In this document: one piece after another, positions 1,256 through 39,268 of the stretch
Position numbering within the stretch: the first letter of the stretch is position 1
Layout: every line of letters begins with the position of its first letter
From: a virus
DNA length: 64,000 nt
IMG/VR virus record: IMGVR_UViG_3300045970_000382
Location: 92,224-156,223 of that record
Reading direction: 5' to 3' (one strand)
Made by a program: the position numbers and the translations under genes
The notes under the pieces: model-generated
What the model was told of the DNA's origin: nothing
What the model saw: the letters and a program-made list of their open reading frames with translations, nothing else
Databases searched by the model: none

Positions 1256-2293
1256 TTATTCACCTTTAAAAAGTTTTAAACCTATATCAAGTAAACTACC
1301 TGATATTTTTTCAGTCTGTGCAAATTTTAATAATACATCTTTTGATGATAAAGATTTTATATTTGATTTTATATAATCCTTTATTTCATCCGATGCTTTT
1401 GTTTCAACTATTTTTTCCATACGGATATCGTGGAGTTCAATAGCATTATCTTTACAGTAATTAATAGTCTGTGCTTTTAATTCTGCCCACTTATGAATAA
1501 GATTTCTATCTAACAATAATGTTATTTTAACCTGATCTTCTTTTTTTAATTTCTTTAAGTCAACTAACAAATCATCAAAAGAATTAACTTCCTTTTTTAT
1601 ATGAGGTCTTTTTATTGTTTTAATATCTATAAATCTTAATTTACCATCTTCAATAACAGACATTCGTGGCTGGTAATCATCCCCGAATGACACGGGGTGC
1701 TGGGTGCCAGGATAATTTACTTTTCGTAATGTTTGAGGAACGTGAATATCACCACTTACTATCTTAGCTGATACATTTTTAAAAAAGTTTGGATCAAGAC
1801 CACAGTTGAGTTCATGAAAATTAGATACTTTTGATCCAATAATAGATTGGTGTATGAACAAAAATTTTAAATTTGGATCATTTATTATTGGTAGCCACTC
1901 TTCCCATTCAATTTCAGCAACTCTACTATGTGGAAGAAATAAAAACTGATCTCTTTTCCAATATGTTGGTTTATCTATAAATGTTATGTTTTCGTACTTG
2001 GATACGAAACGTAAGAAACAGTGATTTCGGTCTACTGTATAGTCGTGGTTGCCTCCCAGTATGGATATAGGGCAGTACTTGTCTCTAATTTCAAGGAACG
2101 AGTTGACAGTTCTATTAACCAACTGGGACTTATGCTTATCCTTCCTATCTAAAACATCCCCAAGGTGTAGGAAAAGATCATATCCACCTTTATCTAATTC
2201 AGCCTTAGCGAAATCAAATACCTTCCAACGATACTCATTACTTGGATTATCGTCGAGGTGCGTATCATTGATAATAAGAATTTTTCTAGTCAT
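1256..2293 (-). CDS. Mre11/SbcD-like metallophosphoesterase recombination nuclease
   Basis: DTH, GDVLD, GNHD, HQ and GDIH motifs. Confidence 0.9.
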   Translation of the reverse strand: MTRKILIINDTHLDDNPSNEYRWKVFDFAKAELDKGGYDLFLHLGDVLDRKDKHKSQLVNRTVNSFLEIRDKYCPISILGGNHDYTVDRNHCFLRFVSKYENITFIDKPTYWKRDQFLFLPHSRVAEIEWEEWLPIINDPNLKFLFIHQSIIGSKVSNFHELNCGLDPNFFKNVSAKIVSGDIHVPQTLRKVNYPGTQHPVSFGDDYQPRMSVIEDGKLRFIDIKTIKRPHIKKEVNSFDDLLVDLKKLKKEDQVKITLLLDRNLIHKWAELKAQTINYCKDNAIELHDIRMEKIVETKASDEIKDYIKSNIKSLSSKDVLLKFAQTEKISGSLLDIGLKLFKGE

Positions 2294-32281: not shown

Positions 32282-32380
32282 TGTGTTTTAAGCACTGTTT
32301 TATTAACTTATGTCAGTATATCAAGCCAGTTGCTTTCTAAGCTTAAACAGCGTTTTTGGCGGCTATTTTAACAGGGTTTT
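32282..32380. repeat. ~100-bp phased T-tract element, copy C
   Basis: Aligns with copy B. Confidence 0.6.
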
Positions 32381-33113
32381 AGTCGTTTGGTTCGACCACA
32401 TAATTTATTAAAGCTAAATACACTTTTAGATCTAACTGATCTTTATAAAAGTTTGCTAATCTTCTAATTTCAGCTTCTTTAGATACTTTATAAGCTAGAT
32501 ATGCTTCTTGTTCTGTTTTGTAATAACCAAGATATTTATTTTTTCCTTTAATACTACATCGAGCTTGATATGGATTTGGTTTACCTTCATAATAAGTAAC
32601 TCCAATACAACATTCACCTCTATTAGCATCACGTTTTATTAAAAGTTTATTTATTTCTTGTGGAAGTAAACAACATGTTTCTGGTGAATATATCTCATTA
32701 TGTTTAAAAAGTATATCTTTATCTAGTTGCCAATCTAAATCTGATCCAAACATTTGTAAATAATCATGAGCAAAGTTTTGAAAATTCCACCATCTTTCAC
32801 AAACAGCACAACCAATATAAGAAGGTTGTTTTAATTGAGTATCTTCGTTATAACATCTTCCTAGCATAGACTTCCAACACTTATAAATTCTTAAATGTGT
32901 TTTAGGAAAATAAATTCCAATTCCAATAAAACCTATATTACAAACACTAGGATGATTTGGATTTTTAACTAGACCATTTCTTAATTGGCTTGCTTGACAA
33001 GTTGTTTCAGTCCCATCATCAAATCTGACTCTTACATCATTACAATCTATATACTTTATAACAATACAAGAACCAGAACTATTCGTTTCAAATCTGTCAC
33101 CTACCTTAATCAT
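32379..33113 (-). CDS. HNH-like/AP2 homing endonuclease, family copy 6
   Basis: Same motifs as copy 1. Confidence 0.8.
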   Translation of the reverse strand: MIKVGDRFETNSSGSCIVIKYIDCNDVRVRFDDGTETTCQASQLRNGLVKNPNHPSVCNIGFIGIGIYFPKTHLRIYKCWKSMLGRCYNEDTQLKQPSYIGCAVCERWWNFQNFAHDYLQMFGSDLDWQLDKDILFKHNEIYSPETCCLLPQEINKLLIKRDANRGECCIGVTYYEGKPNPYQARCSIKGKNKYLGYYKTEQEAYLAYKVSKEAEIRRLANFYKDQLDLKVYLALINYVVEPND

Positions 33114-33380: not shown

Positions 33381-35009
33381 TCATAATAGTGAGAAAGAAG
33401 ATATTACAGCTGGAGTATTACTATCAAAACCAACAACATCTAACATATTGCTATCTAATGGGTCTGCTATTGTAAATCCATTTGATTCCATAGCAGTAAC
33501 AATTAATTTAGCATTAGGTTTATTCATAATTGTGCGGTATTTCTTAAGTAGCGTACTAGGATGTGATCCCTGATTTACTTCATTATCAGTATAACAAACA
33601 AATACATCCACATCCAGTTTATTGTCTATAGCGTATTCAAACATCAACCCTATATTGGTAGATCCAAAACTGGTATTATTTAATACATCAGTAACTTCTT
33701 TAAGACTCATAGTCTCATTTATAGCTAAAGGTTGTATCACGTTATGAAATCCAAGAATATAACATTTAGGTTCTGCTTTAATGGTAGTCATGGCAAGAAC
33801 AGCAGAAGCAACTCTTGGAGTAAATCCTGGAATACCACCAATATTGTTCCATGACATGGATGCCGACACATCTATACATAGTAAGTATTTTTTATTTGTG
33901 GGTTTAATATTTTCAAAGGCCATATAAAATGCTTTTTCAAGAGCAGTAACAATTCTATTTTCAGGATTCCAAATTAAGTTACCTTTTAAACCTCTACCTG
34001 ATTTATAGATATGGTAAGCCATTAAAATTTGTATAGGATGTTGACGAGAACGTTTAAGTTCTTCTTCATTGGTAATTCTACCAATAATATAATCCACATT
34101 ATCAGATAAAGGTTTTATATAACCATTAGCAGTAAGAACACCTAAATTACGCATCATGGCATCATACGGACTGTTTTTGATTAAAGAAGCCCAAATTTCT
34201 GGAATCTTCAACCAATCAGTAGGAATCATCTCCCTAGTTAAACCATAGCAATCAATAGCTTCTTTCTTTTCAGAAATAGTTGTTAGATGGTCATACTGAA
34301 ACGCTAGTTCATGTCCCACTAATATTCGTAATTCTTTATTAGCGCAATTTAGTTGGAAAGGTTTTTTAACAGCCCATGCAAAAAGGGTATTAATATCTTT
34401 GTTATCAGTCTTTGGTTTACAAAGACGAAGTACGTCTCGATGTGACCAACCATTTCTTGATTGGTATTTAACCAGTTGATAGGCTAATTTTGAAACATCT
34501 AAATCCAAATACCAGTTTTTAAGAGCATCAGAAAATAGTCTACCCCGACCACGGAAGTATTTAGAGTATTCAACAAAAGCAAACAAATGAGTTCCAATTC
34601 TACAAACCTCATTTAGTTTAGATAGTGCATATTTTCTTGTTTCTTTATTATCAACACTACCAGCATAAGCAAGAGCAAATATACAAGTTTCGTTTTTAAG
34701 ACAACGTCCTTCAGTTGAAATGTTGACAATAAGATCAATAGTTTCAATAGGATGTTTGAAGAGAGCTTTGTCTAAATCACTTACATTGTCTTTTGTAAGC
34801 TTTTTTTCTTTGACATAGTAGGTTCCGCCAGTTGTACCAAGAATAAGAAACCGTTCTACTTGTTTAAGTAATGGAGTTTCAAATATAAACCCACTTGTGT
34901 TATTTTCTACCATATCTGTACGACCAGCAATAGGTCTATCTACAGGTTGGTCGCCAACTATTTTTTTATGGGGGACGTGCTGCTCAAATTTGAAGGCCAT
35001 AATTTTCAT
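33381..35009 (-). CDS. rsr: Ro60/TROVE ribonucleoprotein (Rsr ortholog)
   Basis: RFLILGT.GGTYY, RIGTHLF, KYQSRNGWSHRDVLRL, AMMRNLG, HP; vWA MIDAS DVSASM and TDNE; DVVGFDS. Confidence 0.95.
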   Translation of the reverse strand: MKIMAFKFEQHVPHKKIVGDQPVDRPIAGRTDMVENNTSGFIFETPLLKQVERFLILGTTGGTYYVKEKKLTKDNVSDLDKALFKHPIETIDLIVNISTEGRCLKNETCIFALAYAGSVDNKETRKYALSKLNEVCRIGTHLFAFVEYSKYFRGRGRLFSDALKNWYLDLDVSKLAYQLVKYQSRNGWSHRDVLRLCKPKTDNKDINTLFAWAVKKPFQLNCANKELRILVGHELAFQYDHLTTISEKKEAIDCYGLTREMIPTDWLKIPEIWASLIKNSPYDAMMRNLGVLTANGYIKPLSDNVDYIIGRITNEEELKRSRQHPIQILMAYHIYKSGRGLKGNLIWNPENRIVTALEKAFYMAFENIKPTNKKYLLCIDVSASMSWNNIGGIPGFTPRVASAVLAMTTIKAEPKCYILGFHNVIQPLAINETMSLKEVTDVLNNTSFGSTNIGLMFEYAIDNKLDVDVFVCYTDNEVNQGSHPSTLLKKYRTIMNKPNAKLIVTAMESNGFTIADPLDSNMLDVVGFDSNTPAVISSFSLL

Positions 35010-35029
35010 TCCTTAATAGGATAAGATAA

Positions 35030-35284
35030 AAAGACCGTCCTTCCTACATTCCCATAGTTCACGGATCGGACTTATTTACTTAAGGTAATATTTTTTCCTT
35101 TGTAAGGTTTAAAGAATATGATACCTTCTCAGCCAGTCATGCCCGTCTACTCACACTTCAGTAGCAGAACACTGTTAGTAGAGCATATACCTCACCTTGA
35201 CAGTAACAAGGGCTACATTTGTTTTGCTGTAGCTTACATAGGTTTCTAAACCATTAGCCGTCTAACGCTCAGGCAGCGGGAATA
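35030..35284 (-). ncRNA. Candidate ~250-nt multibranch structured RNA / Ro60 leader
   Basis: At least 6 hairpins (GCUACA/UGUAGC, CCUUG/CAAGG, UCUACU/AGUAGA, AAGGU/ACCUU) and a closing CUAUUCCC/GGGAAUGUAG helix. Confidence 0.5.
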
Positions 35285-35287
35285 GGG

Positions 35288-35381
35288 TGTTGCTGTTCCG
35301 AATCGAACGGAATAAGCAAAATATAAAAGGAAAGGTGGCAACCTGCCATATTTAAACTTTAGAGTCATTACTCACAGCAAC
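35288..35381 (-). ncRNA. tRNA-like RNA with enlarged non-canonical anticodon arm
   Basis: Acceptor GUUGCUG/CAGCAAC, D arm GAGU/ACUC, T arm UUCCG-UUCGAUU-CGGAA; ~50-nt central arm; followed by ACCC, not CCA. Confidence 0.7.
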
Positions 35382-35384
35382 AAA

Positions 35385-35452
35385 AGAGCAAGTTAAATAA
35401 GATTCGGAGGAGTCATTTTCAAAGAAGTGATAACCAAATCTAATTCAGCTCT
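35385..35452 (-). ncRNA. Y RNA-like hairpin (Y-c)
   Basis: AGAGCUGA...GGUUAUC...CUUGCUCU Ro-binding bulged helix. Confidence 0.8.
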
Positions 35453-35603
35453 AATCCAGTAACAGTTTAGAGTCAATACTGGGAGACTTAAAGTTGCCGT
35501 GTATTTGTCCACACACGGCGTGTGTTCAGGCCAGGTATTTATTTGCGTGAGTTATCGGCACTGACGGTTTCCATCTCACATCCACCAACCACGGAGGATT
35601 TAA

Positions 35604-35669
35604 TTAGAGCAAGTTATTCAAAACTTGGAAGGATCATTATGAGGGATAACCAAGTCTTTTCAGCTCTAA
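35604..35669 (-). ncRNA. Y RNA-like hairpin (Y-b)
   Basis: UUAGAGCUGA-AAAGACUUGG-UUAUC...CCAAGUUUU...CUUGCUCUAA. Confidence 0.82.
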
Positions 35670-35676
35670 ATTGAGC

Positions 35677-35801
35677 GGTTACTGGTGGGACTCGAACCTA
35701 CGACAAACTGTGTTTTGATAATCTAATATCATCAGTTCAAAAGAACAAGATTGAATATTAGTATTTTATGACGGCTGTTCTACCGCTGAACTACAGTAAC
35801 C
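35677..35801 (-). ncRNA. tRNA-His-derived Y RNA (YrlA-like, circularly permuted)
   Basis: 8-bp acceptor GGUUACUG/CAGUAACC, canonical D and T arms; CUUGUUC-UUUU-GAACUGA...AUUAUC in place of the anticodon loop. Confidence 0.8.
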
Positions 35802-36064: not shown

Positions 36065-36093
36065 GTAGACCATCCAATAATTGGATGGTCTAC
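36065..36093. terminator. 13-bp perfect hairpin insulating the Ro operon from upstream genes
   Basis: GTAGACCATCCAA-TAA-TTGGATGGTCTAC. Confidence 0.6.
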
Positions 36094-38533: not shown

Positions 38534-39268
38534 CTAATCATCAAAATCTACCTTGTAATCAACAAGAGCTTGGTACACCCGTGGATCAAGCTCTTCTTTA
38601 TATAAATTTGCCAATCTTTTAATTTCAGCTTCTTTAGCAGGTTTATATACTAGATATGCTTCTTGTTCTGTTTTGAAACTACCAAGATGTTTTGTTTTTC
38701 CTTCAATATTACAACGGGCTTGGTATGGTTTTGTTCTACCTTCACGGTACGTAACTCCAATACGAAGTTCACCTCTGCTAGCATCACTTTTTGTTAAAAG
38801 ATAATTTATTTTAGATGGAACCAAACAACATGTTTCTCTTGAATATATCTTATTTCTTTTAAATAATATATCTTTGTCTAAATGCCAATCCAAATCTGAA
38901 CCCACCATTAGTAAATAATCATGAGCGAAGTTTTGAAAACTATGCCATCTAATATCTACAGTACATCCAATATAAGTAGGATATTTTCTCTGAATATCTT
39001 CGTTATAACATCTTTGTAGCATACAAATCCAAACCATATAAATCCTTTTATGTGATGTATAAGAATAAATTCCAATTCCAATAAAACCAACACCACTAAA
39101 TTTAAGACTTGGATATTTAACATTTCCATTTCTTAAATTTTGGGCTGTACAAATTTTTTCAGCTCCATCTTCAAATCTAATTCTTACATTATTACAATCT
39201 ATATACTCTATTACAACACAAGAACCATAATTATTTGTTTCAAATCTATCACCAACTTTTATTTGCAT
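38534..39268 (-). CDS. HNH-like/AP2 homing endonuclease, family copy 7
   Basis: Same motifs as copy 1. Confidence 0.8.
   Translation of the reverse strand: MQIKVGDRFETNNYGSCVVIEYIDCNNVRIRFEDGAEKICTAQNLRNGNVKYPSLKFSGVGFIGIGIYSYTSHKRIYMVWICMLQRCYNEDIQRKYPTYIGCTVDIRWHSFQNFAHDYLLMVGSDLDWHLDKDILFKRNKIYSRETCCLVPSKINYLLTKSDASRGELRIGVTYREGRTKPYQARCNIEGKTKHLGSFKTEQEAYLVYKPAKEAEIKRLANLYKEELDPRVYQALVDYKVDFDD

What the first reader, a model, noticed from the sequence alone, without database searches (positions are those of the whole stretch)
35677..35801. tRNA-His body with a circularly permuted Ro-binding helix grafted into the anticodon arm
Seen: GGUUACUG-UA-GUUC-AGCGGUA-GAAC...UUGUC-GUAGG-UUCGAGU-CCCAC-CAGUAACC, an 8-bp acceptor with G-1:C73 and a UUGUC variable loop. 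The anticodon loop is replaced by CUAAUAU..CUUGUUC-UUUU-GAACUGA..AUAUUAG-AUUAUC. Known: G-1:C73 is the tRNA-His identity element. In characterised YrlA RNAs the free ends lie in the Ro stem and the acceptor stem is closed by a loop. Here the topology is reversed, with free acceptor ends and the Ro stem closed by UUUU. Inference: a possibly chargeable Y RNA and a plausible evolutionary intermediate between tRNA and YrlA.
Basis: partly seen in the sequence, partly recalled or inferred. Interest (0 to 1): 0.85.

Follow-up and report, generated by a model that had tools for sequence, protein, structure and literature searches.

The report
tRNA-shaped Y RNA beside phage Ro60
A 125-base gene next to a phage's Ro60 gene folds as a complete tRNA whose anticodon loop is replaced by the hairpin that Ro60 proteins bind; this wiring of the known Ro60/Y-RNA partnership is common in phages and bacteria, but I could not find it described.

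Summary
The element is a full cloverleaf that passes the Rfam tRNA threshold. It has G-1:C73 and all the nucleotides needed for the tRNA elbow. In place of a 7-nt anticodon loop it carries 59 nt and no anticodon. That insert is a loop-closed copy of the Ro60-binding module of Y RNAs. A Ro60/Rsr gene lies 668 nt downstream on the same strand, and two ordinary-topology Y RNAs sit in between. All three RNAs share the same unusual bulged U.

The layout is a conserved family, not a one-off. A covariance model finds it in 40 of 160 phage/metagenome rsr loci and in 42 of 80 bacterial rsr loci. Compensatory changes occur in all six helices. Rfam's YrlA model misses single units but matches across the junction of tandem units, as expected for a circular permutation.

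G-1:C73 is enriched in the family (33-48% against 3-8% in neighbouring tRNAs) but is not universal. Charging with histidine is therefore possible but untested.

I found no description in the literature I could search. Earlier runs of this scan noted the same layout on other DNA. Verdict: a new variant of a known kind (YrlA-type Y RNA in unpermuted tRNA topology).

The parts
35677..35801 (-). Whole tRNA-topology Y RNA (125 nt, from G-1 to C73)
   Evidence: Rfam tRNA 39.7 bits; model R1 53.4 bits, E about 1e-13
35794..35801 (-). Acceptor stem 5' strand including G-1
   Evidence: Pairs with 35677-35684. All 8 pairs covary in the family.
35777..35791 (-). D arm (GUUC / AGCGGUA / GAAC)
   Evidence: The family consensus equals the D arm of the Rfam YrlA consensus.
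35771..35775 (-). Anticodon-stem 5' strand (GCCGU), pairs with 35707-35711 (ACAGU; one C.A mismatch)
   Evidence: helix 3 covaries
35712..35770 (-). 59-nt insert replacing the anticodon loop: the Ro60-binding module
35755..35761 (-). Stem S1 5' strand (CUAAUAU), pairs with 35723-35729 (AUAUUAG)
   Evidence: Helix 4; 7 of 7 pairs show double changes in the family.
35730..35749 (-). Ro-type bulged hairpin: C-UU-GUUC, loop UUUU, GAAC-[U]-GA-[U]-G
   Evidence: Helix 5 covaries. Same architecture as the GGUC-C-GA/UUGACC helix of Y RNAs (Chen 2014). The bulged U is shared with Y2 and Y3.
35717..35722 (-). AUUAUC motif (the conserved YUAY of YrlA)
   Evidence: Invariant block; Chen 2014, Fig. 2 legend
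35702..35706 (-). Variable loop UUGUC (C48 available for a G15:C48 pair)
35685..35701 (-). T arm (GUAGG / UUCGAGU / CCCAC; one A.C mismatch)
35677..35684 (-). Acceptor stem 3' strand ending in C73; no CCA encoded (GCU follows)
35604..35669 (-). Y2: ordinary-topology Y RNA. Terminal helix UUAGAGC-[U]-GA / UUGCUCUAA, inner stem ACUUGG/CCAAGU, then UUAUC. Its terminal helix starts 7 nt after C73 of the tRNA-shaped RNA.
   Evidence: (MFE -15.6, z -2.9)
35385..35452 (-). Y3: second ordinary-topology Y RNA with the same AGAGC-[U]-GA / UUGCUCU helix and UUAUC
   Evidence: (MFE -16.1, z -2.35)
33381..35009 (-). rsr: Ro60 orthologue, 542 aa (TROVE ring + vWA domain)
   Evidence: Pfam vWA_Ro60 1.8e-50 and TROVE 2.4e-34; phrog_850

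Best explanation
This is a Y RNA, a partner RNA of the phage's own Ro60/Rsr protein, built in normal tRNA order.

Shown here:
- The gene encodes a complete tRNA cloverleaf whose anticodon loop is replaced by a closed hairpin.
- That hairpin carries the Ro60-binding module: a bulged helix, an inner stem and the YUAUC motif.
- It sits upstream of rsr on the same strand, at the head of an array with at least two ordinary Y RNAs.
- It belongs to a large family with a covarying structure.

Inferred:
- The array is transcribed together.
- Host RNase P cuts to leave G-1 on an 8-bp acceptor stem.
- 3' trimming frees the next Y RNA, and CCA is added.
- The mature L-shaped RNA docks through its extended anticodon arm on the Rsr ring.
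- The tRNA body serves as the stable effector end. It either recruits a tRNA-binding host factor or an exoribonuclease such as PNPase, or protects the RNA from nucleases, as proposed for YrlA.

Functionally it would be a single-chain equivalent of the RNase P-cleaved, CCA-tailed YrlA of M. smegmatis.
For: - The Ro60 gene is 668 nt downstream on the same strand.
- The element is the only tRNA-like hit in the 156-kb genome.
- The same layout sits beside rsr in 40 of 160 phage/metagenome loci and in 42 of 80 bacterial loci. It is almost always on the rsr strand.
- Covariation across 42 copies: 94% of cells are paired against 66% in shuffles. 34 of 37 pairs show double changes. The covariation score is 0.649, against 0.18 shuffled and 0.09-0.14 for slid controls.
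- RNAalifold on an independent MAFFT alignment recovers the same helices.
- The hairpin's 3' strand and the following YUAUC equal the 5' motifs of YrlA.
- The bulged base co-varies by locus between tRNA-shaped and ordinary Y RNAs. It is U in all 3 in the window, in all 5 rsr-proximal modules of L001 and in all 3 of L083. It is C in L015, L019, L059 and L074.
- The closest retrievable relative (Rsr 59% identical) has three such RNAs plus ordinary Y RNAs upstream of rsr, and every one I read carries the U bulge.
- Searching RNA-first, 4 of 5 new viral records with the RNA encode Rsr. The exception is a 15%-complete fragment.
- The Rfam YrlA model aligns full-length across two tandem units (L154 272-447).
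Against: - There are no expression, end-mapping or binding data.
- This copy has A.C mismatches in the anticodon and T stems.
- Its bulged helix departs from the strict GNCGAAN0-1G motif (C-U-G-A-U-G).
- No sigma-70-like promoter was found upstream.
- No RtcB or Band-7 gene is in the genome to hint at an effector.
- The pair counts come from an alignment fitted to the model.
Confidence: 0.85

Rival explanations
1. Processing punctuation. The tRNA shape mainly serves as an RNase P / RNase Z cutting signal that releases the flanking Y RNAs from a polycistronic transcript, as tRNAs punctuate other operons. Its own Ro hairpin would be secondary.
For: Y2's terminal helix begins 7 nt after C73 in the window. 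In many loci an ordinary Y RNA (GGGCCGA...) starts 4-10 nt after the tRNA-shaped unit (3' flanks).
Against: Each unit carries a complete Ro-binding module that covaries and matches the locus-specific bulge. Units also occur in tandem with each other and far from rsr. The two roles are not exclusive.
Confidence: 0.08
2. An interrupted tRNA(-His) gene. The insert would be an intron or mobile insertion that is removed to give a decoding tRNA.
For: The element passes the Rfam tRNA threshold. G-1:C73 is the tRNA-His identity pair.
Against: - No GUG and no U33 are present, and no 7-nt loop can be restored.
- The junction sequences (AAAAU, YUAUC) are conserved motifs rather than variable anticodons.
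- The insert is 52-59 nt, far too short for a bacterial group I intron, and has no bulge-helix-bulge motif.
- The insert's helices are under compensatory selection.
Confidence: 0.03
3. A decaying pseudogene or a chance resemblance.
For: Two A.C mismatches; the single-sequence fold z-score is only -2.2; no close orthologue was available to test selection on this particular copy.
Against: E about 1e-13 against a model from an unrelated phage. All tertiary-contact nucleotides are intact. The bulge variant is shared with Y2 and Y3 and with relative L268. It is the sole tRNA-like element in the genome and lies next to rsr.
Confidence: 0.03

Closest known systems
YrlA (Y RNA-like A; Rfam RF02553; Chen et al. 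2014, PMC4201824; Wang et al. 2018, 10.1101/312249)
   Same: It is encoded near rsr on the same strand. It has a tRNA-like D arm and T arm; the family D arm equals the YrlA consensus UAGCUCA..GGUAGAGC. The Ro-binding 5'-strand motif is followed by YUAY. It has an L-shape with tRNA tertiary contacts.
   Different: - YrlA is a circularly permuted tRNA: the T arm precedes the D arm, the acceptor stem is closed by a loop with no free CCA end, and the RNA's own 5' and 3' ends form the Ro stem.
- Here the order is that of a normal tRNA, the acceptor ends are free and the Ro stem is closed by a loop.
- RF02553 finds nothing in this genome at E<=10.
[quoted passage not shown] 2014)
   Same: It has a 7-bp acceptor stem with free ends, is a substrate for tRNA end-processing, and aminoacylation has been considered possible.
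   Different: That RNA becomes two pieces held together by base pairing, and its Ro stem stays open-ended. The RNA here is one chain.
Metazoan Y RNAs, D. radiodurans Yrn1 and nematode sbRNAs (RF01656)
   Same: Both strands of the bulged Ro helix are recognisable (CUUG.../...C-pyrimidine-GA). Ordinary Y RNAs in sister loci reach the RF01656 gathering score.
   Different: Those RNAs have their termini at the Ro helix and lack a full cloverleaf. Here the strand order is swapped, and in this phage clade the bulge is U rather than C.
b7a-tRNA (Burroughs and Aravind 2016, as cited in 10.1101/312249)
   Same: It is a predicted ncRNA that looks like an authentic tRNA and is sometimes encoded next to Rsr.
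   Different: The paper is not held in the library, so I could not check whether b7a-tRNA carries a Ro hairpin. No Band-7 gene exists in this genome.
tmRNA and viral tRNA-like structures
   Same: They are tRNA mimics with a free, chargeable acceptor end joined to a non-tRNA functional module.
   Different: They are unrelated modules with no Ro60 link. Charging is demonstrated for them and untested here.

Membership tests
tRNA (RF00005) | Cloverleaf scoring above the curated threshold | tested here: met
   39.7 bits against 29, full model
tRNA (RF00005) | 7-nt anticodon loop with U33 and an anticodon | tested here: not met
   59 nt between the anticodon-stem strands; no U33; ARAGORN finds no gene
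tRNA-His | G-1 paired with C73 | tested here: met
   Read directly from the sequence. Family-wide it occurs in 29 of 61 and 26 of 79 copies, against 1 of 33 and 5 of 62 ordinary tRNAs.
tRNA-His | GUG anticodon | tested here: not met
   No GUG anywhere in the 59-nt insert
tRNA-His | Aminoacylation by HisRS | not testable with these tools
   Needs an in vitro charging assay
YrlA (RF02553) | Match to the Rfam covariance model at the gathering score (69 bits) | tested here: not met
   No match at E<=10 in the region or the whole genome
YrlA (RF02553) | Within 4 kb of rsr on the same strand (criterion of Chen 2014) | tested here: met
   668 nt upstream of rsr, same strand
YrlA (RF02553) | T arm 5' of D arm, acceptor stem closed by a loop, RNA ends in the Ro stem | tested here: not met
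   The D arm precedes the T arm, the acceptor ends are free and the Ro helix is closed by UUUU. The YrlA model fits only across tandem units.
YrlA (RF02553) | GNCGAAN0-1G motif followed by YUAY | tested here: inconclusive
   YUAY is present (AUUAUC). The window has GAAC-U-GAUG, which is not a literal match. Most family members have GCCGA(A/U)G.
Y RNA (Ro60 ligand, general) | Bulged helix of the GGUC-C-GA / UUGACC type | tested here: met
   4 bp, a one-pyrimidine bulge, then G.U and A-U pairs; the helix covaries
Y RNA (Ro60 ligand, general) | Physical binding by Ro60/Rsr | not testable with these tools
   Needs EMSA or co-immunoprecipitation
Intron-bearing tRNA | Group I intron core or bulge-helix-bulge splice motif, with a restorable anticodon loop | tested here: not met
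   No intron family was among the matches at E<=10 in the Rfam scan of the region. By my own reading of the sequence, the 59-nt insert is too short for a group I core, has no bulge-helix-bulge motif and leaves no restorable anticodon loop.

The most novel reading that the evidence does not exclude
The RNA matures with true tRNA ends (G-1, C73, an added CCA) and is charged with histidine by the host HisRS. The phage Ro60 particle would then carry an aminoacyl-tRNA-like handle able to engage EF-Tu, ribosomes or other readers of charged tRNA. That would be a direct physical link between Ro60 RNA surveillance and the translation apparatus.
Probability: 0.12. Interest if true: 0.9.

Novelty: new variant of a known kind. 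Interest (0 to 1): 0.68.

Why it matters
**Effector end.** The known bacterial Y RNA, YrlA, is described in print as a tRNA mimic that lacks a free CCA end, which argued against charging or normal tRNA processing. A widespread sister form with ordinary tRNA ends, often carrying the histidine identity pair, reopens that question. It also gives simple substrates for testing it: RNase P, the CCA-adding enzyme and HisRS.

**Origin of YrlA.** This form offers a concrete route for the proposed origin of YrlA from dimeric tRNA transcripts. In a tandem pair of these units, the stretch from one hairpin's 3' strand to the next hairpin's 5' strand already has YrlA's order of parts, and Rfam's YrlA model aligns to exactly that stretch. 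Some published 'YrlA with long acceptor stems' may therefore be tandem units read across the junction. That is my inference and I could not check it.

**Annotation.** These genes will be called odd tRNAs or pseudo-tRNAs unless they are recognised.

Tried and rejected
The Rsr relatives at 56-58% identity found by the protein search therefore could not be fetched that way.
- blastn of the locus against GenBank phages found nothing.
- A single-protein scan of viral contigs found nothing.
- The sigma-70 promoter scan was uninformative.
- The short motif CTGA..TTATC alone is not above chance in the window, with 16 matches against 10.6 expected. Only its clustering and context carry weight.
- A strict RNA pattern found few contigs.
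- Of 37 hits to the hairpin pattern, only L268 gave a match to the tRNA-shaped model; the rest are most likely chance.
- Encoded CCA is no more frequent than in neighbouring tRNAs, so it is not diagnostic.
- Four cultured actinophage and rhizobiophage rsr loci showed only sub-threshold ordinary YrlA hits and none of this type.
- These papers were not held: Sim and Wolin 2018, Sim et al. 2020, Burroughs and Aravind 2016 and the Chen 2014 supplements.
- One cmsearch was wasted through a mistyped E-value.
- I could not run RF02553 on an in-silico re-permuted copy, because the tools take only references.
- I did not test tRNA-His ancestry beyond G-1:C73. The resemblance of UUGUC to the E. coli tRNA-His variable loop is from memory only.

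Full report
**What is there**

Read on the minus strand, window 35677-35801 is a 125-nt cloverleaf. It consists of:
- G-1 plus a 7-bp acceptor stem that closes on C73;
- U8 and A9, then a 4-bp D stem with loop AGCGGUA;
- a 5-bp anticodon stem (one C.A mismatch);
- variable loop UUGUC;
- a 5-bp T stem (one A.C mismatch) with loop UUCGAGU.

The nucleotides for the tRNA elbow and core contacts are all in place: U8:A14, G15:C48, G18:U55, G19:C56 and G53:C61. Rfam's tRNA model scores it 39.7 bits (gathering score 29) over the whole model, but with 59 nt where the 7-nt anticodon loop should be. ARAGORN calls nothing. The 59 nt contain no GUG and no U33. They fold as a 7-bp stem that encloses a short bulged hairpin (CUUGUUC, loop UUUU, GAAC-U-GAUG), followed by AUUAUC.

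**Surroundings**

The window is the last 64 kb of a 156,223-bp IMG/VR virus record that CheckV rates complete. This element is its only match to the tRNA model.

A 542-aa Ro60/Rsr orthologue lies 668 nt downstream on the same strand (33381-35009; vWA_Ro60 1.8e-50, TROVE 2.4e-34; phrog_850). The 1.1 kb between the upstream gene and rsr has no ORF of 60 aa or more.

Two further RNAs of ordinary Y-RNA topology lie in that spacer on the same strand:
- Y2, 35604-35669;
- Y3, 35385-35452.

In each, the two ends pair as AGAGC-U-GA with UUGCUCU, an inner 6-8-bp stem follows, and the central loop opens with UUAUC. Y2's terminal helix begins 7 nt after C73 of the tRNA-shaped RNA.

The genome has no RtcB gene, no Band-7 gene and no match to Rfam YrlA even at E<=10.

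**Is the hairpin a Ro-binding module?**

Four lines of evidence say yes.

1. *Architecture.* The helix has 4 bp, one bulged pyrimidine, then a G.U and an A-U pair and an internal loop. This is the helix that Ro60 contacts in vertebrate Y RNAs. Its 3' strand plus the following YUAY correspond to the GNCGAAN0-1G and YUAY motifs at the 5' end of YrlA (Chen 2014; Rfam consensus).
2. *Side-by-side modules.* In sister loci the same module occurs in both wirings next to each other. L015 2960-3450 has four ordinary Y RNAs (GGGC-C-GAAG ... GUUAUC ... CUUGCCC) and one tRNA-shaped unit that carries the same pieces in swapped order, closed by a 2-nt loop.
3. *Locus-specific bulge.* The bulged base varies by locus and co-varies between the two wirings. 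It is U in all three RNAs of the window, in all five rsr-proximal modules of L001 and in all three of L083. It is C throughout L015, L019, L059 and L074.
4. *Closest relative.* L268 is the closest relative I could retrieve; its Rsr is 59% identical over the part held. Upstream of rsr it carries three tRNA-shaped units and at least two ordinary Y RNAs, and every one I read has the U bulge.

In other loci, ordinary Y RNAs even reach the gathering score of the nematode sbRNA (Y RNA homologue) family RF01656.

**It is a family**

*Detection.* An Rfam scan of 19 viral rsr loci showed 126-156-nt 'tRNA' hits just upstream of rsr in four of them. I built a covariance model from a single copy (L019 3159-3288) with a hand-drawn structure. 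That model finds the window element at 53.4 bits, E about 1e-13.

*Frequency.* At E<=1e-3, long same-strand hits (100-160 nt) occur in:
- 17 of 80 viral rsr loci and 23 of 80 metagenome rsr loci, often in tandem arrays of two to four;
- 42 of 80 rsr loci from GTDB genomes, 79 copies in all. These include Chloroflexota, Myxococcota (among them the isolate Polyangium jinanense), Armatimonadota, Verrucomicrobiota and Brocadia.

*Covariation.* On 42 aligned copies, 94.0% of pair cells are standard pairs against 65.9% in shuffles. Double changes occur in 34 of 37 pairs. The covariation score is 0.649, against 0.181 for shuffles (0 of 500 reach it) and 0.09-0.14 when partners are slid. All six helices show compensatory changes, including the inner stem and the Ro helix. 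That alignment is fitted to the model. However, RNAalifold on an independent MAFFT alignment of five copies recovers the acceptor, D, inner-stem, Ro and T helices, with compensatory changes in 19 of 29 pairs.

*RNA-first search.* A D-arm / Ro-strand / GGUUAUC / T-loop pattern hit 8 viral contigs. Of five new records, four encode Rsr and the fifth is a 15%-complete fragment. In L168 the RNA lies 290 nt upstream of rsr.

**Relation to YrlA**

The literature describes YrlA as a circularly permuted tRNA. Its T arm comes before its D arm, its acceptor stem is closed by a loop, it has no free CCA end, and its ends lie in the Ro stem (10.1101/312249).

Rfam's YrlA model misses the window element. It does align over its full length (1-114; 36.3 bits, below its threshold of 69) to L154 272-447. 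That stretch runs from the hairpin's 3' strand of one unit, through its T arm and acceptor 3' strand, over the spacer, into the acceptor 5' strand, D arm and hairpin 5' strand of the next unit. This is the behaviour expected if the two forms are circular permutations of one another. The D-arm consensus is the same in both.

The window has only one unit, so no YrlA-order RNA can be assembled here. The tRNA order is the only reading.

**The histidine-like end**

| Set | tRNA-shaped copies with G-1:C73 | Ordinary tRNAs of the same loci | Fisher p |
|---|---|---|---|
| Phage/metagenome | 29 of 61 | 1 of 33 | 4e-6 |
| Bacterial | 26 of 79 | 5 of 62 | 4e-4 |

The pair is therefore a real family tendency, but it is not universal. 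The three copies in the closest relative have U:G, U:A and C:G. CCA is encoded about as rarely as in neighbouring tRNAs. Charging by HisRS is thus conceivable for this copy but is unlikely to be the family's defining function.

**Mechanism**

The anatomy, the genomic association and the covariation are shown. The following steps are inferred. The array is co-transcribed. RNase P leaves G-1 on an 8-bp stem, as it does for bacterial tRNA-His. 3' trimming releases Y2, and CCA is added. The extended anticodon arm docks on the Rsr ring. The tRNA body acts as the stable effector or tether end, as proposed for YrlA and shown for Yrn1 with PNPase (Chen 2014). A Thermus phage Ro60 has been shown to bind phage Y-like RNAs and host PNPase (PMC12135203).

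The rival readings are less likely:
- *Pure processing punctuation.* This is compatible with the flanks but does not explain a fully conserved Ro module in every unit.
- *Interrupted tRNA.* This is contradicted by the missing anticodon, the conserved junction motifs and the small size of the insert.
- *Pseudogene or chance.* This is contradicted by the statistics above.

**Novelty**

The papers I could read describe only the permuted YrlA, the two-piece M. smegmatis product, Yrn1 and ordinary phage Y-like RNAs.
- Chen 2014 discarded candidates that overlapped annotated tandem tRNAs. It also reported 'longer acceptor stems' in cyanobacteria and delta-proteobacteria. Both are compatible with this family having been met but not recognised (my inference).
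- The b7a-tRNA of Burroughs and Aravind 2016 is the nearest idea in print. I could not read that paper.
- Earlier runs of this scan noted the same layout in other phages. Those are unchecked AI notes, and I did not use them as evidence.

I class the element as a new variant of a known kind.

**Limits**

There are no expression or binding data. This copy has two A.C mismatches, and no promoter was identified.

Noticed in passing
window 35604-35669 (-) and 35385-35452 (-): Two ordinary-topology Y RNAs (Y2, Y3) lie between the tRNA-shaped RNA and rsr. They share the helix AGAGC-U-GA / UUGCUCU and a UUAUC loop start. Neither is matched by any Rfam family at E<=10.
   Followed up: partly
window 35458-35596 (-): A 139-nt stretch between Y2 and Y3 contains a G+C-rich 9-bp hairpin (CCGUGUGUG.../...CACACGG). 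It has no Rfam match and its fold is no better than shuffles (z -0.45). Its function is unknown. L268 has a different odd tRNA-like element at the equivalent place.
   Followed up: partly
window 35010-35384 (-): A 375-nt non-coding leader lies between Y3 and the rsr start codon. It has a terminator-like hairpin at 35336-35348 directly after Y3. This suggests the Y-RNA array and rsr may be separate transcription units.
   Followed up: no
window 32379-33113 (-) and 38534-39268 (-): Two paralogous 244-aa HNH endonuclease genes (both phrog_953, about 1e-66) lie on either side of the rsr / Y-RNA / Ig-domain structural gene block. They may be homing endonucleases.
   Followed up: no
window 36065-36093: A perfect 11-bp inverted repeat (GTAGACCATCC...GGATGGTCTAC) lies just after the stop of the upstream Big_2-domain gene. 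It is a likely bidirectional terminator that separates that gene from the RNA array.
   Followed up: no
L154 206-673; also L117, L083, L001, L002, L053: tRNA-shaped Y RNAs often form tandem arrays with near-identical acceptor stems. Rfam YrlA, tmRNA and permuted-tmRNA models give sub-threshold matches across their junctions. Published YrlAs with 'long acceptor stems' may be such junction readings.
   Followed up: partly
L094 3331-3394, L026 3184-3257, L083 3178-3247: Ordinary Y RNAs next to phage rsr reach or approach the gathering score of the nematode stem-bulge RNA family RF01656 (a Y RNA homologue). This shows how metazoan-like their Ro helix is.
   Followed up: no
L252 4825-4950 (Polyangium jinanense SDU13) and 41 other GTDB rsr loci: The same tRNA-shaped Y RNA occurs in cellular genomes of many phyla, often at the head of a tRNA gene array next to rsr. 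It is therefore not phage-specific.
   Followed up: partly
L268 about 1560-1840 (-): Between Y-RNA units, the closest relative carries a ~105-nt element with a T arm and an acceptor-like end followed by an encoded CCA. Its 5' half is not a standard cloverleaf, and I did not resolve it.
   Followed up: no
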